A stretch of DNA of 64,000 bases, from assembly GCA_964602655.1 (NCBI GenBank), contig CAZRSF010000007.1:49708-113707 (forward strand). The letters run 5' to 3'. The notes beneath the pieces were generated by a model. It was not told the DNA's origin. It ran no database searches and saw nothing but the letters and a program-made list of their open reading frames with translations. The translations under genes and the position numbers were made by a program. Source of the DNA: an uncultured Candidatus Moduliflexus sp. GTDB lineage: Bacteria; Moduliflexota; Moduliflexia; Moduliflexales; Moduliflexaceae. Below, piece after piece: positions 11,003 through 18,712 of this stretch (its first letter is position 1; every line of letters starts with the position of its first letter).

Positions 11003-11839
11003 TTATTTGTGGACAAGCGCAAAGATGTCTTTACATACGTTCAGCAAGTCGAATGCCGCTTCCGGCGTAATCATGTTTGGCCCGTCGCAGGGCGCGTGAT
11101 CAGGGTCAGGATGCACTTCGAGAAACAGGCCGCTCGCTCCGGCAGCCACCGCCGCCCGCGCTAACGTTGCCACGAATTGCCGTTCGCCGGAAGACGACGT
11201 GCCTGCGCCGCCAGGAAGTTGGACGCTGTGCGTGGCGTCGAAGATCACCGGGTAGCCAAAGCCCTGCACAATCGGAATCGCCCGCATATCAGACACGAGG
11301 TTGCCATAGCCGAAACTCGCGCCCCGTTCCGTGATGACAACCTGATCGTTGCCGCTCGTGATGACCTTTTGAGCGCAATTTTTCATATCGCTCGGCGCGA
11401 GAAACTGCCCTTTTTTGATATTGACGATTTTGCCGGTTTGCGCTGCCGCGACAAGCAGATCGGTTTGGCGGCACAAAAACGCCGGAATTTGCAGCATATC
11501 CGCCACTTCCGCAACCGGCGCGGCCTCGTCTGGCGTGTGAATATCGGTCACAATCGGCACGTCGAATTGACGCCGAATTTCGTCTAAAATCCGCAAGCCC
11601 CGCTCAAAGCCGATGCCGCGATAGGACGATAACGAACTGCGATTGGCTTTGTCGAATGAAGATTTATAAATAAACGGTAAGCCTAATTGCGCTGTAATTT
11701 CTTTCAGATGTTCGGCGGTCGTGAAATTGACGGCAGGATCGTCCTCGATGACGCAGGGGCCGGCGATGACGACAAGCTGGTCGCCGCCGATACTGAAGTC
11801 GCGCAATGACACGCGATGAAGTTGAGTGATCTGTTCCAT
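11003..11839 (-). CDS. kdsA: 3-deoxy-8-phosphooctulonate (KDO8P) synthase
   Basis: Strong resemblance to E. coli KdsA: [44 protein letters not shown]. Start trimmed to MEQITQ. Confidence 0.9.
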
Positions 11840-11856
11840 AGTCCTAAGTAGTGCCA

Positions 11857-11903
11857 GGAGTGCCAACGCTTGCTTTGGCGGCCAAAGCAAGCGTTGGCAC
11901 TCC
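11857..11903. repeat. perfect 23+1+23 palindrome, GGAGTGCCAA(A/C)GCTTGCTTTGGC family
   Basis: ggagtgccaacgcttgctttggc g gccaaagcaagcgttggcactcc. It lies between the RACE-like gene stop and the kdsA start and probably also acts as a terminator. Confidence 0.8.
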
Positions 11904-11919
11904 ATCATTGATTTTGAAA

Positions 11920-13746
11920 TTATCCGGGAAAGCGCATCTGTTCGGCGAACATCGTCTGGAACCGCGTATCGTTCGTCAAGGCGAGATGTTCGGTTCGCCG
12001 GGCGATCACATCGGCTTCATCTTTGGCTGCACGGGAAAGCAAAGCCAGTTGCGCCCCTAAACCGGCGGCGTTCCCGACTGACCGAATCCGTTCGCGGGGC
12101 ACATCAGGAATCAGGCCGATCCGCGTGGCGCTGTCAATATCAATATAATTGCCGAACGCGCCCGCTAACAAGATTTCCGCGATGTCGTCCTGCTCGATTC
12201 CCATGCGCTGCATCAGCATCGCGATGCCCGTCGCAATCGCGCCTTTGGCAAGTTGCAATTCGCGAACGTCCTGCTGTGTAATAACAATCGGCTCGCCGGA
12301 TTCGGTCTGATGGGCGTCCATCAATACGAACGAACGCTTGCCGTCGCCAACTCGCAGCCGCGTCCGCAACGCGAACGGCACGCCCTTTTTCTCCGCATCT
12401 TCCGGCGTCAACAGGCGTCCGCTGCTATTGATCAGCCCGGCATCCAACATCTGCGCAATCGCGTCAACAAGGCCAGAGCCGCAAATTCCCTGCGCCGGAC
12501 ATTCGCCGAGCACATGACACTGCACGTCGCCGTCAATTGCCACGCGGTCTATCGCGCCAGCCGCGCCGCGCATCCCATGCGTGATCTGCGCTCCTTCGAA
12601 GGCCGTGCCAGCCGCCGCAGAACAGGCGAGCAAGCTCTCTTTCGAGCCAAGCACGATTTCTCCGTTCGTGCCGATGTCAATGGCTAATGTGATGTGATCG
12701 TTCGCATGCAGCGCCGTCGCCAACACCACGCCGACCGTATCAGCGCCGACGAATCCGGCAATCAGCGGCAGCATCACCACCCGCGCCTGCGGAAAAATAT
12801 GCAGCCCAAACTCTTTCGCCGTTAAGACGATCTGGTCGCGAATCGCCGGAAGATACGGCGCTCTGCCTAAATGCACCGGCGAGATATGCAGCAGCAGATG
12901 ATGCATGACGGTATTGCCGACGATAGTGACTTCATAAATCTGCTGCGCGTCAATCCCGGCCTGCTCGCAGACCTCTTCGATAATCGTATTCAGCGTTTTC
13001 AGAATGTGTTCATGAAGTTTCTGCAAACTGGCGCGATCTTGCTGCGCGAAGGTAATGCGCGACATCAGATCGCCGCCATAGACGGTCTGAGCGTTCAAGG
13101 CCGACGCCACCGCGATTTCCTGGCCGGTATGCAGATTGAGCAAATACCCCACGACTGTCGTCGTGCCGACATCAAACGCCAGCCCGTACATCTGTTCGCA
13201 TGTATAGCCCGGTTCGATGCCGATCACGGTATTTTTCCAGCAGACGACCGTCATTTCGCGACGATGCTCGAATAGCACGGATGGCAGATGCCGCAATGCC
13301 GCAAGATCAATGTCCGCTGCCGCGAGATGTTCGCGCACATCCTCGAAATCAGAACTTTGATGTTCTTCAATTCTCTGCGGCAGAATGAGAAACTGCTTGC
13401 TGACATCAGGCGCTAAAACCACTTCTTCGCGTTCGGTATGCGAGAGGATGCGGTGCAATTGCTCAGAAATCGGCGGAATGACGCGCACCACGCCGTCAGT
13501 GAGCGCTCTGGTTTTGCAGGCAAGACGATACCTCTGCCGCAAGCGTTTTTCTCCCAGCACGCGGAAATCTTCGTCGGTCGGCGGCGTAAACTCGCCGCGA
13601 ATCAGTTGAATGCGGCAACTGTTGCAGCGGCCTTTGCCGCCGCAGGTCGCGACAATCTCCACGCCGCCTTGATGAGCGCATTCTAACACCGTTTGCGTCG
13701 GCTGAATCTCAATCGTTTTTTCTTCGGGCTGAAAGGTGATGTTCAT
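11920..13746 (-). CDS. ASKHA-fold corrinoid reductive activase (RACE/AcsV-like) with N-terminal 2Fe-2S ferredoxin domain
   Basis: The N-terminus [13 protein letters not shown]...LACKT is a plant-type ferredoxin. The rest fits a DUF4445/ASKHA ATPase architecture ([17 protein letters not shown]). Confidence 0.75.
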
Positions 13747-13769
13747 CGCAGATTTGGGAATGAGACGTT

Positions 13770-13865
13770 CCAGGGGTTGAAACCCCAGTCTTTATTCCGT
13801 TGCCGCTTCGCGGCAAGCCTCGCCCTGAAAGGGCGTTGGCATAAAGACAGGGGTTCCAACCCCTG
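13770..13865. repeat. 96-bp nested-palindrome element (core CCGTTGCCGCTTCGCGGCA..CGCCCTGAAAGGGCG)
   Basis: A second copy with the same architecture lies at 38544..38641. Confidence 0.75.
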
Positions 13866-13879
13866 AGAAATTCGCCGGG

Positions 13880-14761
13880 TTATGCTCCTTTGACCATCGT
13901 GGCGATGGCTCGAAGGTAGTCGGGATTCGTGCCGCAGCAGCCGCCGATAATGCGCACATCAAGATCAAGCAGCGGTTTCATCAGATCAGCCATCTCTGAC
14001 GGTGTCATGGTATAGACATTTTTGCCATCGCGCAGTTCAGGAAGCCCGGCGTTCGGCTGCGCGATCAGGTAGCCATTCGTCACGGAGCGCATCGCCTGAA
14101 GCACGCCGACGGTCAGTTCCGGTCCCGCGCCGCAATTCGTGCCGACAACATCCGCGCCGGCCTGCTGCAATGCTTCGACCGCCTGTTCCGGCGATGTGCC
14201 CATCATGGTGCGGTAGCCTTTCTTTTTTTGCTCGAAGGTCATCGTCGCCACCACTGGCAGCGAGGTATTTTCTTTGACCGCTTTCACCGCAATCACCGTT
14301 TCTTCCAGGCTGATCATGGTTTCCACGAAGGCTGCATCCACGTCGCCGGCTTGCAACGCGAGCGCCTGGGCTTTGAACGCCTGATATGCGTCGTCTTCGG
14401 CTAATGCGCCATACGGTTTGAGAAGTTGTCCGATTGGTCCAATCGATCCGGCGACAAAACGTTGCTCGCCAGCGGCTTTGCGGGCGATTTCAGCGCCTTT
14501 GCGATTCCATTCCGCCATCTTATCGGCAACATGATAATCATTGAGTTTGATGGACGTTCCGCCGAACGTGTTCGTTTCCACCATATCGCATCCGGCGTCG
14601 AAATACGCCTGATGAATCGCCTGCACGTCGTTCGGGTGCGACACGTTCCATTCTTCGGGGCACGCGCCTTGCGGCAGCCCTCTGGCAAATAACATCGTGC
14701 CCATTGCGCCGTCCGATACGAGGCGGCGTTTTGCTAATTCCGCTAAAAAATCTCGCGCCAT
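13880..14761 (-). CDS. homocysteine S-methyltransferase domain protein (MetH N-terminal-module-like)
   Basis: 293 aa. Hcy-binding-domain pattern with the C-terminal zinc site GGCCGTNP and GTNCG. Confidence 0.8.
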   Translation of the reverse strand: MARDFLAELAKRRLVSDGAMGTMLFARGLPQGACPEEWNVSHPNDVQAIHQAYFDAGCDMVETNTFGGTSIKLNDYHVADKMAEWNRKGAEIARKAAGEQRFVAGSIGPIGQLLKPYGALAEDDAYQAFKAQALALQAGDVDAAFVETMISLEETVIAVKAVKENTSLPVVATMTFEQKKKGYRTMMGTSPEQAVEALQQAGADVVGTNCGAGPELTVGVLQAMRSVTNGYLIAQPNAGLPELRDGKNVYTMTPSEMADLMKPLLDLDVRIIGGCCGTNPDYLRAIATMVKGA

Positions 14762-14767
14762 TTAACG

Positions 14768-14866
14768 AATAGAACACTGATTGGACTGATAGAACTGATT
14801 TTCATTGATTTTTTATTTTAAATCATCAGTGTTGATCTGTTTTATCAGTCCAATCAGTGTTCTATT
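14768..14866. repeat. 99-bp MITE-like element with perfect 24-bp terminal inverted repeats (AATAGAACACTGATTGGACTGATA)
   Basis: The arms at 14768..14791 and 14843..14866 are exact reverse complements. A solo arm lies at 28943..28964. Confidence 0.8.
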
Positions 14867-15437
14867 TTTTTTCCAAATTCACTTTGCCGATTTCCATATA
14901 TTCCGAGCCGGTAGATTTCAATTCGCTGCGAATCAGATAGAGCGCATCTACTGAAGTGACGCCGACCCAGATATTGACAATGCCTTCGATTGCCCGGAAG
15001 AGAGTGCTTTTATTTTTCTGTGATCGCACCCGTCCGAGCGTCAGATGCGGCTGAAATCGCCCGCTTTCCCCCTGAAATCCCAATGCTTCAAGACGCGGCG
15101 ACAGGTCAGCTTCCAATGTTTTCAAACTCCCGCTTTCATCGTCGGTGATGCCGATCCAAATCACGCGGGGGAAGCTCATGTTCGGAAACGCGCCCGCGTA
15201 GCCGATTTGCATCGAAAACGGGGATACTGTCTTCGCGCTTACAGTCATGGCGTCTAAAATTGCGGGGATTTGCGCTTCCTGAATATCCCCTAAGAATTTC
15301 AGGGTCAGATGAATGTTGTCCGGCTTTACCCAAGAGATTTGCGCATCCGCTTGTTTTAATTTCTCCTGAATTCCCGCCAGCTTTTCCTGGATTTCCTGCG
15401 AAATCTTGATGGCAATAAATGCTCGAATTCCGTCCAT
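14862..15437 (-). CDS. thpR: RNA 2',3'-cyclic phosphodiesterase (2H family, ThpR/LigT)
   Basis: Two HxTx motifs (HLTLKF and HLTLGR). Start trimmed to MDGIRAFIAI. Confidence 0.8.
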   Translation of the reverse strand: MDGIRAFIAIKISQEIQEKLAGIQEKLKQADAQISWVKPDNIHLTLKFLGDIQEAQIPAILDAMTVSAKTVSPFSMQIGYAGAFPNMSFPRVIWIGITDDESGSLKTLEADLSPRLEALGFQGESGRFQPHLTLGRVRSQKNKSTLFRAIEGIVNIWVGVTSVDALYLIRSELKSTGSEYMEIGKVNLEKK

Positions 15438-15505
15438 AATTTTTTCGTGTATCGCCGCGACTTCAGAGCGTCCTCCATCCTGACATCGCGCGACAGCGTC
15501 CACGT

Positions 15506-16753
15506 TTATTTTTCGCGTAACAGTTCGCCGCGCAGCATATCTAACGCCGTTTGCGCGGTTCTGGTCTTGATCTCAAGGCGATCCCCTGAAAATTGGCATT
15601 TCCGCCAGTGCGTACCGCCTTGTTCGGAAGAAACAGCAATAAAGACCAATCCCACCGGCTTATTCGGCGTCGCGCCGCCCGGCCCCGCGATGCCCGTCAC
15701 CGCGACGCCATAGGTGGTCTGCGACAGCCAGCGAATGCCTTCCGCCATTGCAACGGCTGTTTCGGCACTGACCGCGCCATGCTGCTCGATGATATTCGGA
15801 GACACGTCCAATAACGACATTTTCGCATCATTGCTATACGCCACAATTCCACGTTCCATATACATCGAACTGCCTGGAACATTTGTCAATCTGTGCGCAA
15901 TCAGGCCGCCGGTGCAGGATTCCGCCACTGCGACGGTCTGTCTGCGGTCGGCTAACAGTCTGCCGACAACTTCTTCCAGTGTTTCAGCGCCGACGCCGTA
16001 AACATACCGTTCCAATTTTTTGATAATCTGCTCGTTCAATGAGCGCAAACGACTTTCAACGTCGGTCTGAATTTCCCCTTTGACAGTCAAAATGATTGAG
16101 ATTTCCTCACCATCTTCGACGTAATTCAGCAATTGCTGACCGCCTTCCCAGTCAATGCCTTTCAATGATTCTTTGATTTTCGACAATGGCAATCCGCAGG
16201 TTTTGAATATTATGCCGTTGACCGTGCCGAATCGAAATGTTTTGGGGTCAAGGCGCGGCAAAATGCGCTGTTTGACAATCTGCTCGATTTCGTCAGGTTG
16301 CCCCGGCAGCAAGACCACGCTGTTTTGTTCATGCGTAAACAAAAACGCCGGCATTCGGCCTTTTTCATTGTCCAACATTTCTGCTTCCGTTGGGACTAAC
16401 GCCTGTTTTTCCGCTGTCGGCGGCATGGTATCTCCGCGAGCTTCATATTCGGCTTTGATTGCGTCCAACAATTTATAGTTCAGGATCAGGCGCTTTTTCA
16501 GTACGCGCGTCAGCAATTTTTTGGCGGTGTCATACTCGCCGGACATAACTTTTGCCACGATAAAGACCAGGCTCGACCGTCCGATAGCCTGACGCAGCAC
16601 GTCTTCCATCCGATTTTCCTGTCCGCTGACGAATGAGACGTAATCCACTTCGATTCCGGCGTCTAACAATTGGCGAGAGATGACCGCTACGCTGTTATTC
16701 CGAGCGTCTTGAATAATGAATTCGCTTCCGACTGAGATGATTTCGACTGGCAC
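15506..16753 (-). CDS. cinA: CinA family protein (MoCF-like N domain plus nicotinamide-nucleotide amidohydrolase PncC domain)
   Basis: C-terminal VAVAESCTGGLIAHRLTNVPGSS and GVAVTGIAGPGG motifs. Confidence 0.85.
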   Translation of the reverse strand: MPVEIISVGSEFIIQDARNNSVAVISRQLLDAGIEVDYVSFVSGQENRMEDVLRQAIGRSSLVFIVAKVMSGEYDTAKKLLTRVLKKRLILNYKLLDAIKAEYEARGDTMPPTAEKQALVPTEAEMLDNEKGRMPAFLFTHEQNSVVLLPGQPDEIEQIVKQRILPRLDPKTFRFGTVNGIIFKTCGLPLSKIKESLKGIDWEGGQQLLNYVEDGEEISIILTVKGEIQTDVESRLRSLNEQIIKKLERYVYGVGAETLEEVVGRLLADRRQTVAVAESCTGGLIAHRLTNVPGSSMYMERGIVAYSNDAKMSLLDVSPNIIEQHGAVSAETAVAMAEGIRWLSQTTYGVAVTGIAGPGGATPNKPVGLVFIAVSSEQGGTHWRKCQFSGDRLEIKTRTAQTALDMLRGELLREK

Positions 16754-17348: not shown

Positions 17349-17599
17349 ATCTATTTTTCAACGTCCGGTCTCTTGAAAGCCGCAGCAAAAATCGTACAGC
17401 GGTTTCCGCGTCGGGACGCCTTTTTATAAATTATGATTACATGAATGACTATGTTTGCGTCTTCATCGTATATCTGCAAAGGCGAGCTTCTCTGTCAACA
17501 AATATATGAGGAAATCTCCGAATTGCAGAAAAAAAGTTGTGCCGGCACATTTTTCTTGACGAAATTCCGGTGAGTTGTTTTTCCAGTATTTCAATAGAT

Positions 17600-17921
17600 G
17601 GGTCGTTAGCTCAGTTGGTAGAGCAGCTGACTCTTGGTAAGGGAGCCTCATACAGTAATGTATGAGTGAAAATTCGACTATATGCTAGGACGTCCTGAGA
17701 GCCTGAACTACTTCGTAAGAAGTAAAAATGTTCAGGATTGGATAATTAGCAGGCAACCCTCAAAAAATTTTGAGGAAGCCCTCAGAGGCCATACGTCGAA
17801 CATCCGGCAGGTAAGGCTGAGGATGATGAAATGGTCCAGACCGCAACGTCTGAGTGATGGTTAGCGAAAGCTAATGCGGTAGGTAATCAGCGGGTCAGAG
17901 GTTCGAGCCCTCTACGGCCTA
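17600..17921 (+). tRNA. tRNA-Lys(CUU), interrupted in the anticodon loop by a 249-nt intron. No CCA is encoded.
   Basis: Exons 17600..17634 and 17884..17921 join into a 73-nt cloverleaf very similar to bacterial tRNA-Lys. The anticodon loop is CTCTTAA. Confidence 0.75.
17635..17883 (+). ncRNA. candidate group I (IC3-like) self-splicing intron
   Basis: It follows an exon U and ends in G. GGGAG at 17641..17645 can pair with the exon end CUCU through a terminal U.G pair. It has a P2-like hairpin (17647..17666), a possible P4 pairing (17673..17678 with 17795..17800) and a GAAA-tetraloop hairpin (17861..17874). I did not derive the full fold. Confidence 0.65.
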
Positions 17922-17948: not shown

Positions 17949-18153
17949 TTATTCATACCAATCTTTCGGAATCAATTTTTTTCCTTTTCTCCATTCTTCC
18001 ATAACTCCCCTGAAAATCTTTTATCTTCGAATTGGCATGGTCGGTGATGATGACTTGAAGGTTTGGCGAGAGGTCTTTTACTGTGTCAAAAATCAGTCGA
18101 TACATGTTATATACAGCCTGTTCATCACTCGTGAGTTTGCAGATGACAGACAA
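17949..18153 (-). pseudogene. 3' remnant of a DUF3732-type (ABC-3C SMC-like ATPase) gene, frameshifted
   Basis: One frame reads NLQVIITDHA...DFQ. A shifted frame reads VMEEWRKGKKLIPKDWYE-stop. Together these match the characteristic C-terminus of DUF3732 proteins as I remember it. The N-terminal ~90% is absent. Confidence 0.5.
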
Positions 18154-18253
18154 AAGGAACAGGTCGCTTTTGTTCCAAAGAAAAACCTTGAGGAATCTGC
18201 CTTTTCGCAGGTTATTCTAATGCGTCATGAAATATGATGGGGGACGAATAACA

Positions 18254-18712
18254 ATGCTACACGATCCGAATCAAAAAGGGATTTTGGGTGAAATAGCAGT
18301 GATCAAGAATCTTTGCGCGCAGGGATATGATGTATTTCAAGCGGTCAGCAACAGTTCACGGGTTGATCTGATTGCACTGCGTGACAACATTCCGATCAAA
18401 ATCCAGGTGAAGAGTACTTATTCGAAGAATGGAATCGTTACGGCATATACCAGGAAAACATGTCTCAATCCTGTGTATAATTACTCCTATTCTACTGATG
18501 ATTTTGATGTTTTGGCGATATATGTCATTGACAAAGATGTAGTGTGTTATATCGCTTCGCACGAGATTCTTGCAAACAGAACGATGGTGAAGTTGAGATT
18601 CGAAGAAGCAAAGAATGGTCAGCAAAAAAGAATTCGTTATGTTTCTGATTATTCTGATTTTGAGAATGCTCTTACGCATCGTATGCCAGATATTCAGCAG
18701 ATTCAGAGATAA
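18254..18712 (+). CDS. PD-(D/E)xK endonuclease, I-Ssp6803I-like (PDDEXK_5-type), free-standing
   Basis: 152 aa. GILGEIAVIKNLCAQGYDVF...RVDLIAL...IKIQVKST gives a D...(Q)xK core with spacing and size like the cyanobacterial tRNA-intron homing endonuclease family. GGGGGA RBS. Confidence 0.6.
   Translation: MLHDPNQKGILGEIAVIKNLCAQGYDVFQAVSNSSRVDLIALRDNIPIKIQVKSTYSKNGIVTAYTRKTCLNPVYNYSYSTDDFDVLAIYVIDKDVVCYIASHEILANRTMVKLRFEEAKNGQQKRIRYVSDYSDFENALTHRMPDIQQIQR

What the first reader, a model, noticed from the sequence alone, without database searches (positions are those of the whole stretch)
18254..18712. Free-standing I-Ssp6803I-like PD-(D/E)xK endonuclease gene 333 bp downstream of the ORF-less tRNA intron
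The 152-aa product (GILGEIAVIKNLCAQGYDVF, VDLIAL, IKIQVKST) has the size and D...(E/Q)xK layout of the PD-(D/E)xK homing-endonuclease family. That family is typified by I-Ssp6803I, which is encoded inside the Synechocystis tRNA-fMet group I intron.

Here the intron has no ORF, and the endonuclease-like gene sits just outside the tRNA on the same strand. This arrangement recalls 'collaborative homing', where a free-standing endonuclease cuts intron-less alleles and the neighbouring intron protects the host copy. That has been described for cyanophage psbA and T-even phages. It would be new for a bacterial tRNA intron and for this nuclease fold.
Basis: inference. Interest (0 to 1): 0.66.

Follow-up and report, generated by a model that had tools for sequence, protein, structure and literature searches.

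The report
Homing nuclease escaped its tRNA intron
A small DNA-cutting enzyme gene that normally sits inside a self-splicing intron of the lysine tRNA gene lies here just outside that gene, intact and under selection, next to an empty copy of the same intron, which suggests that selfish nuclease–intron partnerships can come apart and persist in bacteria.

Summary
Window 18254-18712 (+) encodes a 152-aa protein of Pfam PF11645 (73 bits, E 3e-20) that matches I-Ssp6803I (PDB 2OST); its E13/D38/Q51/K53 motif is invariant among relatives. It lies 332 nt downstream of a tRNA-Lys(CUU) gene split by a 249-nt ORF-less group I intron.

Comparison adds three points:
- All 22 more distant relatives examined (43-54% identity) lie inside the P6a loop of a homologous tRNA-Lys intron. 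Their last ~30 codons read through the intron core.
- The window protein belongs to a rare monophyletic free-standing clade (10 contexts). Five contexts have the ORF-less intron/tRNA just upstream. Several keep a vestigial copy of the intron 3' half and 3' exon at the ORF's end, so the gene left the intron through a rearrangement.
- dN/dS is 0.08-0.21, so the gene is not a dead relic.

"Collaborative homing" stays plausible but unproven. One contig pairs the gene with an intron-less tRNA-Lys. A close relative has the intron without the gene. In the window itself the vestige is eroded below significance. This is a new variant of a known kind.

The parts
17552..17565 (+). Conserved box TTTCTTGACGAAAT, 35 nt upstream of the tRNA; a candidate promoter element (contains TTGACG)
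   Evidence: It occurs once in the window. The same 14-mer sits 33 nt upstream of the orthologous tRNA in L074 and 54 nt upstream of the nuclease ORF in L157. Promoter function is inferred only.
17600..17634 (+). tRNA-Lys(CUU) 5' exon, ending ...GACUCU (U35)
   Evidence: Joined to 17884-17921 it gives a canonical 73-nt tRNA-Lys(CUU) in ARAGORN. The splice position is inferred from the U.G pair in P1 and the terminal G rule.
17635..17883 (+). ORF-less group I intron, 249 nt; the P6a hairpin CCTCAAAAAATTTTGAGG lies at 17758-17775
   Evidence: Rfam RF00028 scores 48.1 bits, E 1.2e-10, over the full model. The consensus fold of 9 relatives has 31 compensatory pairs. Orthologs in L001, L002 and L074 are about 85% identical.
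17884..17921 (+). tRNA-Lys(CUU) 3' exon
   Evidence: It is identical to the 3' exon in L074.
17953..18153 (-). Remnant of the C-terminus of an ABC-3C system ABC ATPase (DUF3732); a gene fragment, not a gene
   Evidence: Pfam PF12532, E 6e-8, profile positions 130-166 of 186 only. It is homologous to the spacers of L001 and L002. L009 has the intact MC3, CTD7, XRE and ABC ATPase genes at the equivalent place.
18157..18244 (+). Remnant of the 3' end of a 79-aa ORF plus the intergenic stretch that precedes the nuclease gene in L006/L009; includes the GGGGGA Shine-Dalgarno at 18239-18244
   Evidence: blastn gives 81% identity over 88 nt to L006 1441-1527 and L009 3907-3993. The full 79-aa ORF is seen.
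18254..18712 (+). Free-standing I-Ssp6803I-family PD-(D/E)xK homing-endonuclease gene (152 aa, intact)
   Evidence: Family assignment. Catalytic residues are invariant. dN/dS against orthologs is 0.11-0.21.

Best explanation
The ORF encodes an intact homing endonuclease of the I-Ssp6803I (PF11645) family. Its ancestors were encoded in the P6a loop of the tRNA-Lys group I intron. In this lineage a rearrangement placed a second copy of [intron 3' half + 3' exon + downstream flank] in front of the ORF. The result was a complete tRNA-Lys(CUU) gene with an ORF-less intron, followed by the now free-standing nuclease gene. Behind the nuclease gene lay a displaced, decaying copy of the intron 3' half and 3' exon. 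Later deletions trimmed the intervening ABC-3C island to 332 nt and, in the window, erased the displaced copy.

Shown: family membership, intact catalytic motif, purifying selection, descent from intron-encoded relatives, and the recurrent linkage with the ORF-less intron.

Inferred:
1. The enzyme is made from read-through of the tRNA transcript. No terminator was found and a Shine-Dalgarno is present.
2. It still recognises the pseudo-palindromic DNA of the uninterrupted tRNA-Lys(CUU) anticodon stem-loop, as I-Ssp6803I does for tRNA-fMet.
3. It cuts intron-less alleles that enter or coexist in the cell.
4. Its own locus is spared because the intron splits the site.
5. Repair from this locus copies the intron. 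The nuclease gene itself is copied only when homology lies beyond it. The displaced 3' exon provides that homology in L002 and L007; nothing obvious provides it in the window.
For: Family and integrity:
- Pfam 73 bits; 2OST match.
- E13/D38/Q51/K53 invariant.
- dN/dS 0.08-0.21 at dS 0.7-2.9 across the free-standing clade.

Ancestral state:
- 20 genome loci plus L008 and L003 (= L028) have the ORF nested between the two halves of tRNA-Lys.
- The tails of these proteins (..GDE.VQTTT..) are translations of the intron core.
- A neighbour-joining tree puts the free-standing clade sister to the intron-encoded CUU clade, with the intron-encoded UUU member outside both.

Vestiges at the ORF's end:
- L002 repeats 127 nt of intron 3' half + 3' exon across the ORF's last 27 codons (z 31-36).
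- L006 z 17, L031 z 9.5, L001 z 8.6.
- L007 has a second 3' exon plus flank (111 nt, 80%).
- L157 has an intron-end/3'-exon remnant.

Linkage:
- The window, L001, L002, L032/L033 and L156 all show ORF-less intron, 3' exon, a 65-332 nt spacer, then the ORF. Downstream genes differ.

Intron intact.

No terminator or + strand promoter between tRNA and ORF.
Against: - No biochemical evidence exists for any member of this clade, and the target site is inferred by analogy.
- L007 has an intact ortholog (78% identity) 146 nt downstream of an intron-less tRNA-Lys(CUU). Its anticodon arm is identical to the window's spliced exons. An enzyme active on that site would attack its own genome. L007 is a single 2-kb metagenome contig and could be chimeric through the repeated 3' exon.
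- L006/L009 and L031 keep the gene with no tRNA nearby: 4 kb and 219 nt examined, respectively.
- L074 has an 85%-identical intron-containing tRNA with no nuclease gene within 980 nt.
- In the window the similarity of the ORF tail to the intron is not above chance (z 0.6-1.2). The 'escape' history therefore rests on orthologs, not on the window.
- The tree is neighbour-joining without support values.
Confidence: 0.5

Rival explanations
1. Domesticated nuclease. After leaving the intron the gene was kept because it benefits the host or a neighbouring element, for example in defence or DNA repair. It would no longer act on tRNA-Lys genes, and the adjacency to the intron would be historical only.
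For: - Strong purifying selection holds even in contexts without the intron or without a nearby tRNA: L007-L031 dN/dS 0.135, L007-L006 0.109.
- In L006/L009 the gene follows a 79-aa ORF by 31 nt. It sits beside an XRE regulator and an ABC-3C conflict system.
- Remnants of both flank it in the window.
- The intron-less tRNA in L007 is tolerated.
Against: - The gene persists after the ABC-3C genes and the 79-aa ORF are deleted (window, L001, L002, L032), so it does not depend on them.
- No PADLOC or other defence-family evidence was obtained.
- Five of nine informative contexts still have the intron-containing tRNA immediately upstream.
Confidence: 0.2
2. Self-mobilising cassette that carries a replacement piece of its target gene, like the endonuclease 'mORF' elements of fungal mitochondria. 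The mobile unit would be [tRNA 3' part + spacer + nuclease gene]. It would insert at the anticodon of resident tRNA-Lys genes and leave the resident 3' half behind. Immunity would come from sequence differences in the imported tRNA rather than from the intron, which would be a passenger.
For: - L155, a viral contig, shows exactly this. A 572-nt insert carries a complete second tRNA-Lys(UUU) with a different anticodon stem plus a PF11645 ORF. The insert splits a resident tRNA-Lys(UUU) in the anticodon, and no intron is present.
- L002 and L007 have the order functional tRNA, ORF, displaced 3' exon.
- The displaced copies in L002 and L157 carry TCAAC where the functional copies have TCAGC in the anticodon stem.
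- The fungal precedent is described in PMC3630166.
Against: - No displaced 5' half lies upstream of the tRNA in the window.
- The displaced copy includes intron sequence, so it came from an intron-containing allele.
- In the window no displaced 3' copy remains.
- L007's two 3' exons have the same anticodon-stem strand.
Confidence: 0.15
3. Stranded relic. The gene was separated from its intron by accident, has no activity that matters, and simply has not yet decayed.
For: - The flanking vestiges decay at different rates in different lineages.
- Related intron-encoded copies do degenerate; L025 is truncated to 39 aa.
- HEG decay after fixation is the expected life cycle (PMC3984707).
Against: - Seven diverged orthologs are all intact, with dS up to >2, dN/dS 0.08-0.21 and invariant catalytic residues.
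- A Shine-Dalgarno is kept in most of them.
Confidence: 0.07
4. Cargo of an integrase-type genomic island inserted at tRNA-Lys. The nuclease would be unrelated to the intron and the adjacency would be coincidental.
For: - tRNA genes are island hot spots (general knowledge).
- ABC-3C remnants lie between tRNA and ORF.
- Direct repeats of the tRNA 3' part occur in L002 and L007.
Against: - No integrase is near. The neighbours are LigT, CinA and PgpA upstream and LacI plus sugar ABC transporter genes downstream.
- The repeats include intron sequence and, in L007, 73 nt beyond the tRNA end, unlike att cores.
- The nearest relatives are all inside the same intron.
Confidence: 0.05

Closest known systems
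I-Ssp6803I, the PD-(D/E)xK homing endonuclease encoded in the Synechocystis tRNA-fMet group I intron (PDB 2OST; Bonocora & Shub 2001 and Zhao et al. 2007, as cited in PMC3984707 and PMC3384342)
   Same: - Same Pfam family, similar size and the same D...QxK motif.
- The host gene is a tRNA interrupted in the anticodon loop by a group I intron.
- The anticodon arm offers a pseudo-palindromic target of the kind I-Ssp6803I binds as a tetramer (PMC3384342).
   Different: - Only weak sequence similarity (E 0.004 pairwise).
- The host is tRNA-Lys(CUU), not tRNA-fMet.
- The organism is an uncultivated non-cyanobacterial Gram-negative bacterium.
- The gene lies outside the intron.
- Cleavage activity, target and oligomeric state are untested.
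Intron-encoded PF11645 genes in tRNA-Lys(CUU/UUU) introns of Pyrinomonadaceae/Acidobacteriota, Methylococcaceae, Betaproteobacteria and Rhodothermales MAGs (loci L003, L008, L010-L030). NCBI names one of them 'group I intron-associated PD-(D/E)XK endonuclease'.
   Same: - Closest relatives outside the clade (43-54% identity).
- Homologous intron at the same insertion site in tRNA-Lys(CUU).
- Same conserved C-terminal F-x-x-A-L segment.
   Different: In those loci the ORF sits in the P6a loop and its last ~30 codons overlap P6a'-P9 of the ribozyme. Here the loop is an 18-nt hairpin and the ORF is 332 nt beyond the tRNA.
Collaborative or trans homing in phages: F-CphI with the ORF-less psbA intron of cyanophage S-PM2, and T4 mobE with the nrdB intron/I-TevIII (PMC3984707 section 12; PMC2790892; PMC6083498)
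   Same: A free-standing nuclease gene lies next to a gene that carries an ORF-less or defunct-ORF group I intron. The expected logic is that the nuclease cuts the intron-less allele and the intron confers immunity.
   Different: - In those cases the nuclease and intron are unrelated partners thought to be on the way to fusing. Here the sequence vestiges indicate the opposite direction: a nuclease that left its intron.
- This is a bacterial chromosome and a tRNA gene, with a PD-(D/E)xK fold rather than HNH or Endo VII.
- Cleavage and immunity are not demonstrated.
Mitochondrial 'mORF' endonuclease elements that carry a replacement 3' end of the target gene (Allomyces macrogynus atp6; Glomus atp6, atp9, cox2, nad3; PMC3630166)
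   Same: The order is functional gene with an imported or duplicated 3' part, then the endonuclease ORF, then the displaced native 3' part. This is seen in L002, L007 and L157, and with a whole replacement tRNA in the viral contig L155.
   Different: - Those are protein-coding mitochondrial genes with LAGLIDADG or GIY-YIG enzymes.
- Here the gene is a tRNA, the duplicated part includes half a ribozyme, and in the window the displaced copy is no longer detectable.
T4 SegB, a free-standing GIY-YIG homing endonuclease in the phage tRNA gene cluster (PMC2330249)
   Same: A free-standing homing endonuclease lies beside tRNA genes and promotes inheritance of the tRNA region.
   Different: SegB belongs to a different nuclease family, is a phage enzyme, involves no intron, and its target is not the anticodon insertion site.

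Membership tests
PF11645 / I-Ssp6803I-like PD-(D/E)xK homing endonucleases | Significant match to the family HMM over its whole length | tested here: met
   73 bits against a cut-off of 26.1, E 3.2e-20, profile positions 2-136 of 138
PF11645 / I-Ssp6803I-like PD-(D/E)xK homing endonucleases | Catalytic motif (E ... D ... Q/E-x-K) present and conserved | tested here: met
   E13, D38, Q51 and K53 are invariant in 12 sequences. D38 and Q51-V-K53 align with YDL and QVK of 2OST.
PF11645 / I-Ssp6803I-like PD-(D/E)xK homing endonucleases | Restriction-endonuclease-like fold resembling 2OST | tested here: inconclusive
   The AlphaFold2 model from the 12-sequence alignment has mean pLDDT 53 and pTM 0.51. 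That is too poor for a fold search, so only sequence-level similarity to 2OST was obtained.
PF11645 / I-Ssp6803I-like PD-(D/E)xK homing endonucleases | [quoted passage not shown] | tested here: not met
   The window ORF starts 332 nt after the tRNA 3' end. The feature is met by 22 relatives.
PF11645 / I-Ssp6803I-like PD-(D/E)xK homing endonucleases | Site-specific cleavage of the intron-less allele at or near the intron insertion site | not testable with these tools
   Needs purified protein and synthetic substrates.
Collaborative / trans homing pair (free-standing nuclease + ORF-less intron) | Structurally intact ORF-less self-splicing intron in a conserved gene | tested here: met
   - Rfam full-length match at 48.1 bits; the ortholog in L002 scores 53.4, above the gathering score.
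- 31 compensatory pairs.
- The exons join to a canonical tRNA.
- Splicing itself was not tested.
Collaborative / trans homing pair (free-standing nuclease + ORF-less intron) | Free-standing nuclease gene adjacent to the intron-containing gene, recurrently | tested here: met
   Seen in the window, L001, L002, L032/L033 and L156.
Collaborative / trans homing pair (free-standing nuclease + ORF-less intron) | The nuclease target coincides with the intron insertion site, and the intron confers immunity | not testable with these tools
   Inferred from intron-encoded relatives only. L007 (intron-less tRNA beside an intact ortholog) speaks against a strict need for immunity, if that contig is not chimeric.
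Collaborative / trans homing pair (free-standing nuclease + ORF-less intron) | Nuclease and intron co-occur across genomes | tested here: inconclusive
   - 5 of 9 informative contexts have both.
- L007 has the gene without the intron.
- L074 has the intron without the gene.
- L006/L009, L031 and L157 have the gene without an adjacent intact tRNA.
Group I intron in a bacterial tRNA anticodon loop | Rfam RF00028 at gathering score | tested here: inconclusive
   Window 48.1 bits against 50. L002 scores 53.4 and L001 47.1.
Group I intron in a bacterial tRNA anticodon loop | Conserved P1-P9 pairings with covariation, a U.G pair at the 5' splice site and a terminal G | tested here: met
   P2-P9 pairings with covariation are in the consensus; that fold did not recover P1. 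The P1 pairing CUCU(U)/GGGAG, and the G at 17883 before U17884, were read.
Integrase-type genomic island at a tRNA gene | Tyrosine or serine recombinase gene next to the tRNA, with att repeats confined to the tRNA 3' part | tested here: not met
   The neighbours are LigT, CinA and PgpA upstream and LacI plus sugar ABC transporter genes downstream. Repeats in orthologs include intron sequence and extend past the tRNA.

The most novel reading that the evidence does not exclude
The association between a homing endonuclease and its group I intron would be reversible in bacteria. One nuclease lineage aimed at the tRNA-Lys anticodon would exist in three interconvertible forms:
- inside the intron;
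- free-standing behind the tRNA, while still driving the now ORF-less intron in trans;
- in a phage, as an intron-free cassette that brings its own cleavage-resistant replacement tRNA.

The window would be a chromosomal, bacterial case of trans (collaborative) homing that arose by nuclease escape rather than by nuclease arrival.
Probability: 0.35. Interest if true: 0.75.

Novelty: new variant of a known kind. Interest (0 to 1): 0.6.

Why it matters
Models of mobile-intron origin assume that free-standing nucleases invade ORF-less introns, and collaborative homing in two phages is the main evidence for an intermediate (PMC3984707). This locus and its relatives offer the same two-part arrangement in a bacterial chromosome. 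They also carry sequence vestiges that give the direction of change, and that direction is out of the intron.

If the enzyme is active, the system gives a small, testable model in three respects:
- how nuclease and ribozyme can separate and still cooperate;
- how such genes persist under selection after fixation;
- how a tRNA-targeting nuclease solves self-immunity in three different ways.

It also adds tRNA-Lys to the short list of bacterial tRNA genes that carry group I introns. The searchable literature gave no description of this. Finally, tRNA finders and Rfam at default thresholds miss these genes.

Tried and rejected
- ARAGORN and Rfam at gathering threshold found no tRNA or intron in the window. 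The E-value mode and manual exon joining were needed. ARAGORN with introns allowed mislabels the gene as tRNA-Thr.
- Structure prediction from the 12-sequence alignment gave pLDDT 53. No fold search was run on it.
- The similarity between the window's own ORF tail or downstream 700 nt and its intron is not above chance. I therefore do not claim a vestige in the window itself.
- NCBIfam gave no meaningful family for the ORF.
- No plasmid relatives were found. Phage records hold only distant (~30% identity) relatives.
- Taxonomic placement failed. Window proteins are singletons at 90% identity. The nearest named KdsA homologs (~71-72% identity) come from 'Ca. Vecturithrix granuli' and an unclassified 'Cyanobacteria bacterium UBA9971' MAG. 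L009, which carries the 74%-identical ortholog, is labelled Deltaproteobacteria.
- The integrase-type island explanation was rejected (see rivals).
- Pattern hits without tRNA context (L039, L042 and others) are group I introns in rRNA genes and irrelevant here.
- Zhao et al. 2007 (PMC1864971) is not held. Details of I-Ssp6803I come from PMC3384342 and my own knowledge.
Full report
**1. What is in the window**

The + strand ORF 18254-18712 (152 aa) is real. A GGGGGA Shine-Dalgarno precedes it at 18239-18244. All homologs begin at the equivalent methionine, so the longer 161-aa reading from 18227 is unlikely.

The family assignment rests on three searches:
- Pfam PF11645 (PDDEXK_5) at 73 bits against a cut-off of 26.1, E 3.2e-20, over nearly the whole model.
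- The sequence of PDB 2OST (I-Ssp6803I) at E 0.004 alone.
- The same PDB entry at E 1.5e-5 with a 12-sequence profile, with Holliday-junction resolvases next but only weakly.

E13, D38, Q51 and K53 are invariant. They align with the D...QVK of 2OST.

Upstream lies a tRNA-Lys(CUU) gene that default tools miss.
- Rfam in E-value mode finds a full-length group I intron at 48.1 bits, against a gathering score of 50 (E 1.2e-10).
- Joining 17600-17634 to 17884-17921 gives a canonical 73-nt tRNA-Lys(CUU).
- The intron is therefore 17635-17883 (249 nt). It is inserted between anticodon positions 35 and 36 if the usual U.G and terminal-G rules hold. That placement is an inference.
- A consensus fold of nine related ORF-less introns has 72 pairs, 31 with compensatory changes. 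The window sequence keeps them.

**2. The spacer is a graveyard, not a promoter region**

- Window 17953-18153 (minus strand) is a C-terminal fragment of a DUF3732 protein (E 6e-8).
- Window 18157-18244 is 81% identical to the end of a 79-aa ORF, plus the intergenic stretch, that directly precedes the nuclease gene in L006/L009.
- In L009 ('Deltaproteobacteria bacterium' MAG) the equivalent space holds an intact ABC-3C conflict system: ABC ATPase, MC3, a CTD7 protein and an XRE regulator on the minus strand. The 79-aa ORF and the nuclease gene follow.
- The window, L001 and L002 share the DUF3732 remnant. A deletion has therefore reduced a several-kb island to 332 nt.
- No + strand promoter-like site and no terminator lie between tRNA and ORF. 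Read-through from the tRNA promoter is the simplest source of expression; this is an inference.

**3. Relatives: the normal home of this gene is inside the intron**

The 5.8-billion-protein search found only 12 relatives. A scan of species-representative genomes found 22 loci.

- Every relative at 43-54% identity has the ORF nested between the two halves of a tRNA-Lys gene. The D-arm lies about 210 nt before the ORF and the T-arm about 90 nt after it.
- These relatives come from Pyrinomonadaceae and other Acidobacteriota, Methylococcaceae, a betaproteobacterium and a Rhodothermales MAG.
- All are in tRNA-Lys(CUU) except L003/L028, which reads as tRNA-Lys(UUU). There the insertion point is shifted by one nucleotide.
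- The ORF occupies the P6a loop. Its last ~30 codons run through P6a', J6/7, P7, P8 and P9. This is why ORF-less introns give tblastn hits to the tails only, and why the proteins end in ..GDE.VQTTT...

**4. The window protein belongs to a rare free-standing clade that left the intron**

Members at 66-79% identity form one clade in a neighbour-joining tree. That clade is sister to the intron-encoded CUU group, with the intron-encoded UUU member outside both (no support values).

Contexts of the clade:

| Locus | What lies upstream of the ORF | What lies at or after the ORF's end |
|---|---|---|
| Window (= L034) | ORF-less intron, 3' exon, 332-nt spacer | no vestige above chance |
| L001 | ORF-less intron, 3' exon, ~108-nt spacer | tail vestige, z 8.6 |
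| L002 | ORF-less intron, 3' exon, ~260-nt spacer | 127-nt copy of intron 3' half + 3' exon |
| L032/L033 | ORF-less intron, 3' exon, 65-nt spacer | no vestige above chance |
| L156 | intron 3' end, 3' exon, 68-nt spacer | not examined further |
| L007 | intron-less tRNA-Lys(CUU) (Rfam 66 bits), 146-nt spacer | second copy of 3' exon and its flank |
| L006/L009 | ABC-3C island; no tRNA within 4 kb | tail vestige, z 17 |
| L031 | no tRNA within 219 nt | tail vestige, z 9.5 |
| L157 | the 14-mer box TTTCTTGACGAAAT, which precedes the tRNA in the window and in L074 | remnant of intron end + 3' exon |
| L158 | too short to tell | too short to tell |

The decisive evidence for descent is the vestiges.
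- In L002, 127 nt of intron 3' half plus 3' exon (146-281) recur at 964-1090. The second copy covers the ORF's last 27 codons and its stop.
- Alignment scores of ORF tails to the intron 3' half exceed shuffles by z = 31-36 (L002), 17 (L006), 9.5 (L031) and 8.6 (L001).
- In L007 the 3' exon and 73 nt of its flank are repeated after the ORF (111 nt, 80%).
- In the window and in L032 the tail similarity is not above chance (z ≤ 1.2). No remnant lies in the 700 nt downstream of the window ORF.

The history is therefore read from orthologs, not from the window.

**5. Is the gene alive?**

Pairwise dN/dS within the clade is 0.08-0.21 at dS 0.7-2.9. This includes pairs from the lineage without an adjacent intron. 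Catalytic residues are invariant, and most members keep a Shine-Dalgarno. A decaying relic is unlikely.

**6. Are intron and gene coupled?**

They are not strictly coupled.
- A pattern for ORF-less introns of this family found at least 120 metagenome contigs. Most are in tRNA-Lys(UUU) or tRNA-Lys(CUU).
- The closest of these, L074, is 85% identical over tRNA plus intron and has an identical 3' exon. It has no nuclease gene within 980 nt downstream.
- L007 has the gene with an intron-less tRNA whose anticodon arm is identical to the window's spliced exons. If that contig is correct, an enzyme active on this site would endanger its own genome.
- L007 is one short metagenome contig, and it could be a chimera through the repeated 3' exon.

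**7. Mechanism**

The best-supported reading is a displaced but functional homing endonuclease. It would recognise the uninterrupted tRNA-Lys(CUU) anticodon arm, a pseudo-palindrome of the kind I-Ssp6803I binds (PMC3384342). The resident ORF-less intron would confer immunity and would be copied into cut alleles. This is trans or collaborative homing as defined for phages (PMC3984707 section 12; PMC2790892).

The order functional tRNA, ORF, displaced 3' part is also that of mitochondrial mORF elements, which carry a replacement 3' end of their target gene (PMC3630166). In that scheme the displaced 3' exon is the homology arm that lets the nuclease gene travel together with the intron. The window has lost that arm. 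Here the enzyme could at most drive the intron unless broader synteny supplies homology.

I give the active trans-homing reading a confidence of 0.5. The alternatives are domestication (0.2), an intron-independent mORF-like cassette (0.15), a relic (0.07) and coincidental island cargo (0.05).

**8. A third architecture, seen in passing**

In a 129-kb IMG/VR viral contig (L155), a PF11645 ORF (38% identity; Pfam E 7e-19) lies in a 572-nt insert.
- The insert splits a tRNA-Lys(UUU) gene exactly in the anticodon. The two halves join to a canonical tRNA.
- The insert also carries a complete second tRNA-Lys(UUU) with a different anticodon stem.
- No intron is present.

This nuclease family can therefore solve the damage it does to its target in three ways: by sitting in a ribozyme, by sitting behind a restored gene, or by importing a resistant replacement gene.

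**9. Comparison, novelty and limits**

The protein is a member of PF11645 by sequence. The family feature 'encoded in the intron' is not met here, and cleavage is untested.

The arrangement resembles collaborative homing. It differs in host (bacterial chromosome, tRNA gene), in fold and in inferred direction (escape, not arrival). I found no description of tRNA-Lys group I introns or of this arrangement in the searchable literature. NCBI does already name one relative 'group I intron-associated PD-(D/E)XK endonuclease'.

I rate this a new variant of a known kind, with interest 0.6.

Limits:
- The contigs are short metagenome assemblies.
- The free-standing clade has ten contexts (nine informative).
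- The tree is neighbour-joining without support values.
- There is no biochemistry.
- The structure model was unusable.
- The organism could not be named.

Noticed in passing
L155 2815-3461 (IMG/VR contig IMGVR_UViG_3300013121_000034): In this viral contig a 572-nt insert splits a tRNA-Lys(UUU) gene in the anticodon. The insert carries a complete second tRNA-Lys(UUU) with a different anticodon stem, plus a PF11645 nuclease ORF whose stop codon overlaps the displaced 3' half. No intron is present. It looks like a homing cassette that brings its own replacement tRNA.
   Followed up: partly
window 17953-18153 (-) and 18157-18244 (+): The spacer between tRNA and nuclease gene holds two gene remnants: the C-terminus of a DUF3732/ABC-3C ATPase, and the end of a 79-aa ORF. 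The intact ABC-3C system (ABC ATPase, MC3, CTD7, XRE) and the 79-aa ORF occupy this place in L009.
   Followed up: partly
L035-L114 (metagenome contigs): ORF-less group I introns of this family are common in tRNA-Lys(UUU) and tRNA-Lys(CUU) genes of environmental bacteria. I found no description of tRNA-Lys as a bacterial group I intron host in the searchable literature.
   Followed up: partly
window 17600-17921; also L001, L002, L074: ARAGORN and Rfam at gathering threshold miss this intron-containing tRNA. Such genes will be absent or mislabelled in automatic annotation, so a genome may appear to lack tRNA-Lys(CUU).
   Followed up: yes
L003 4599-5358 compared with window 17600-17921: The homologous intron sits between anticodon positions 34 and 35 in a tRNA-Lys(UUU) host, and between 35 and 36 in tRNA-Lys(CUU) hosts. 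The internal guide differs accordingly (GGAG against GGGAG). This was read from sequence only.
   Followed up: no
L157 34-47, window 17552-17565, L074 596-609: The same 14-mer TTTCTTGACGAAAT precedes the tRNA in the window and in L074. In L157 it precedes the nuclease ORF directly, as if the 5' exon and intron 5' half, or the whole tRNA, had been deleted there.
   Followed up: partly
L002 1048-1090 and L157 downstream of 532: The displaced 3' exon copies carry TCAAC in the anticodon-stem strand where the functional tRNAs carry TCAGC. This hints that the displaced and functional copies come from different tRNA alleles.
   Followed up: no
L025 3995-4114 and L026: Some intron-encoded relatives are truncated (39 aa in L025; a shortened tail in L026). 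This is consistent with the usual decay phase of homing endonuclease genes.
   Followed up: no
L039, L042, L045, L046, L056, L087, L095, L102 and others: The same intron core pattern also occurs in introns inside 16S and 23S rRNA genes. Some are followed by ORFs that look like LAGLIDADG-type ORFs (not checked). They are unrelated to the finding.
   Followed up: no
window 11003-16753: Gene content near the locus includes KdsA, a corrinoid activation protein AcsV, a homocysteine methyltransferase domain protein, LigT and CinA. This suggests an uncultivated anaerobic Gram-negative bacterium. The proteins are singletons at 90% identity in the 15-billion-protein collection.
   Followed up: partly
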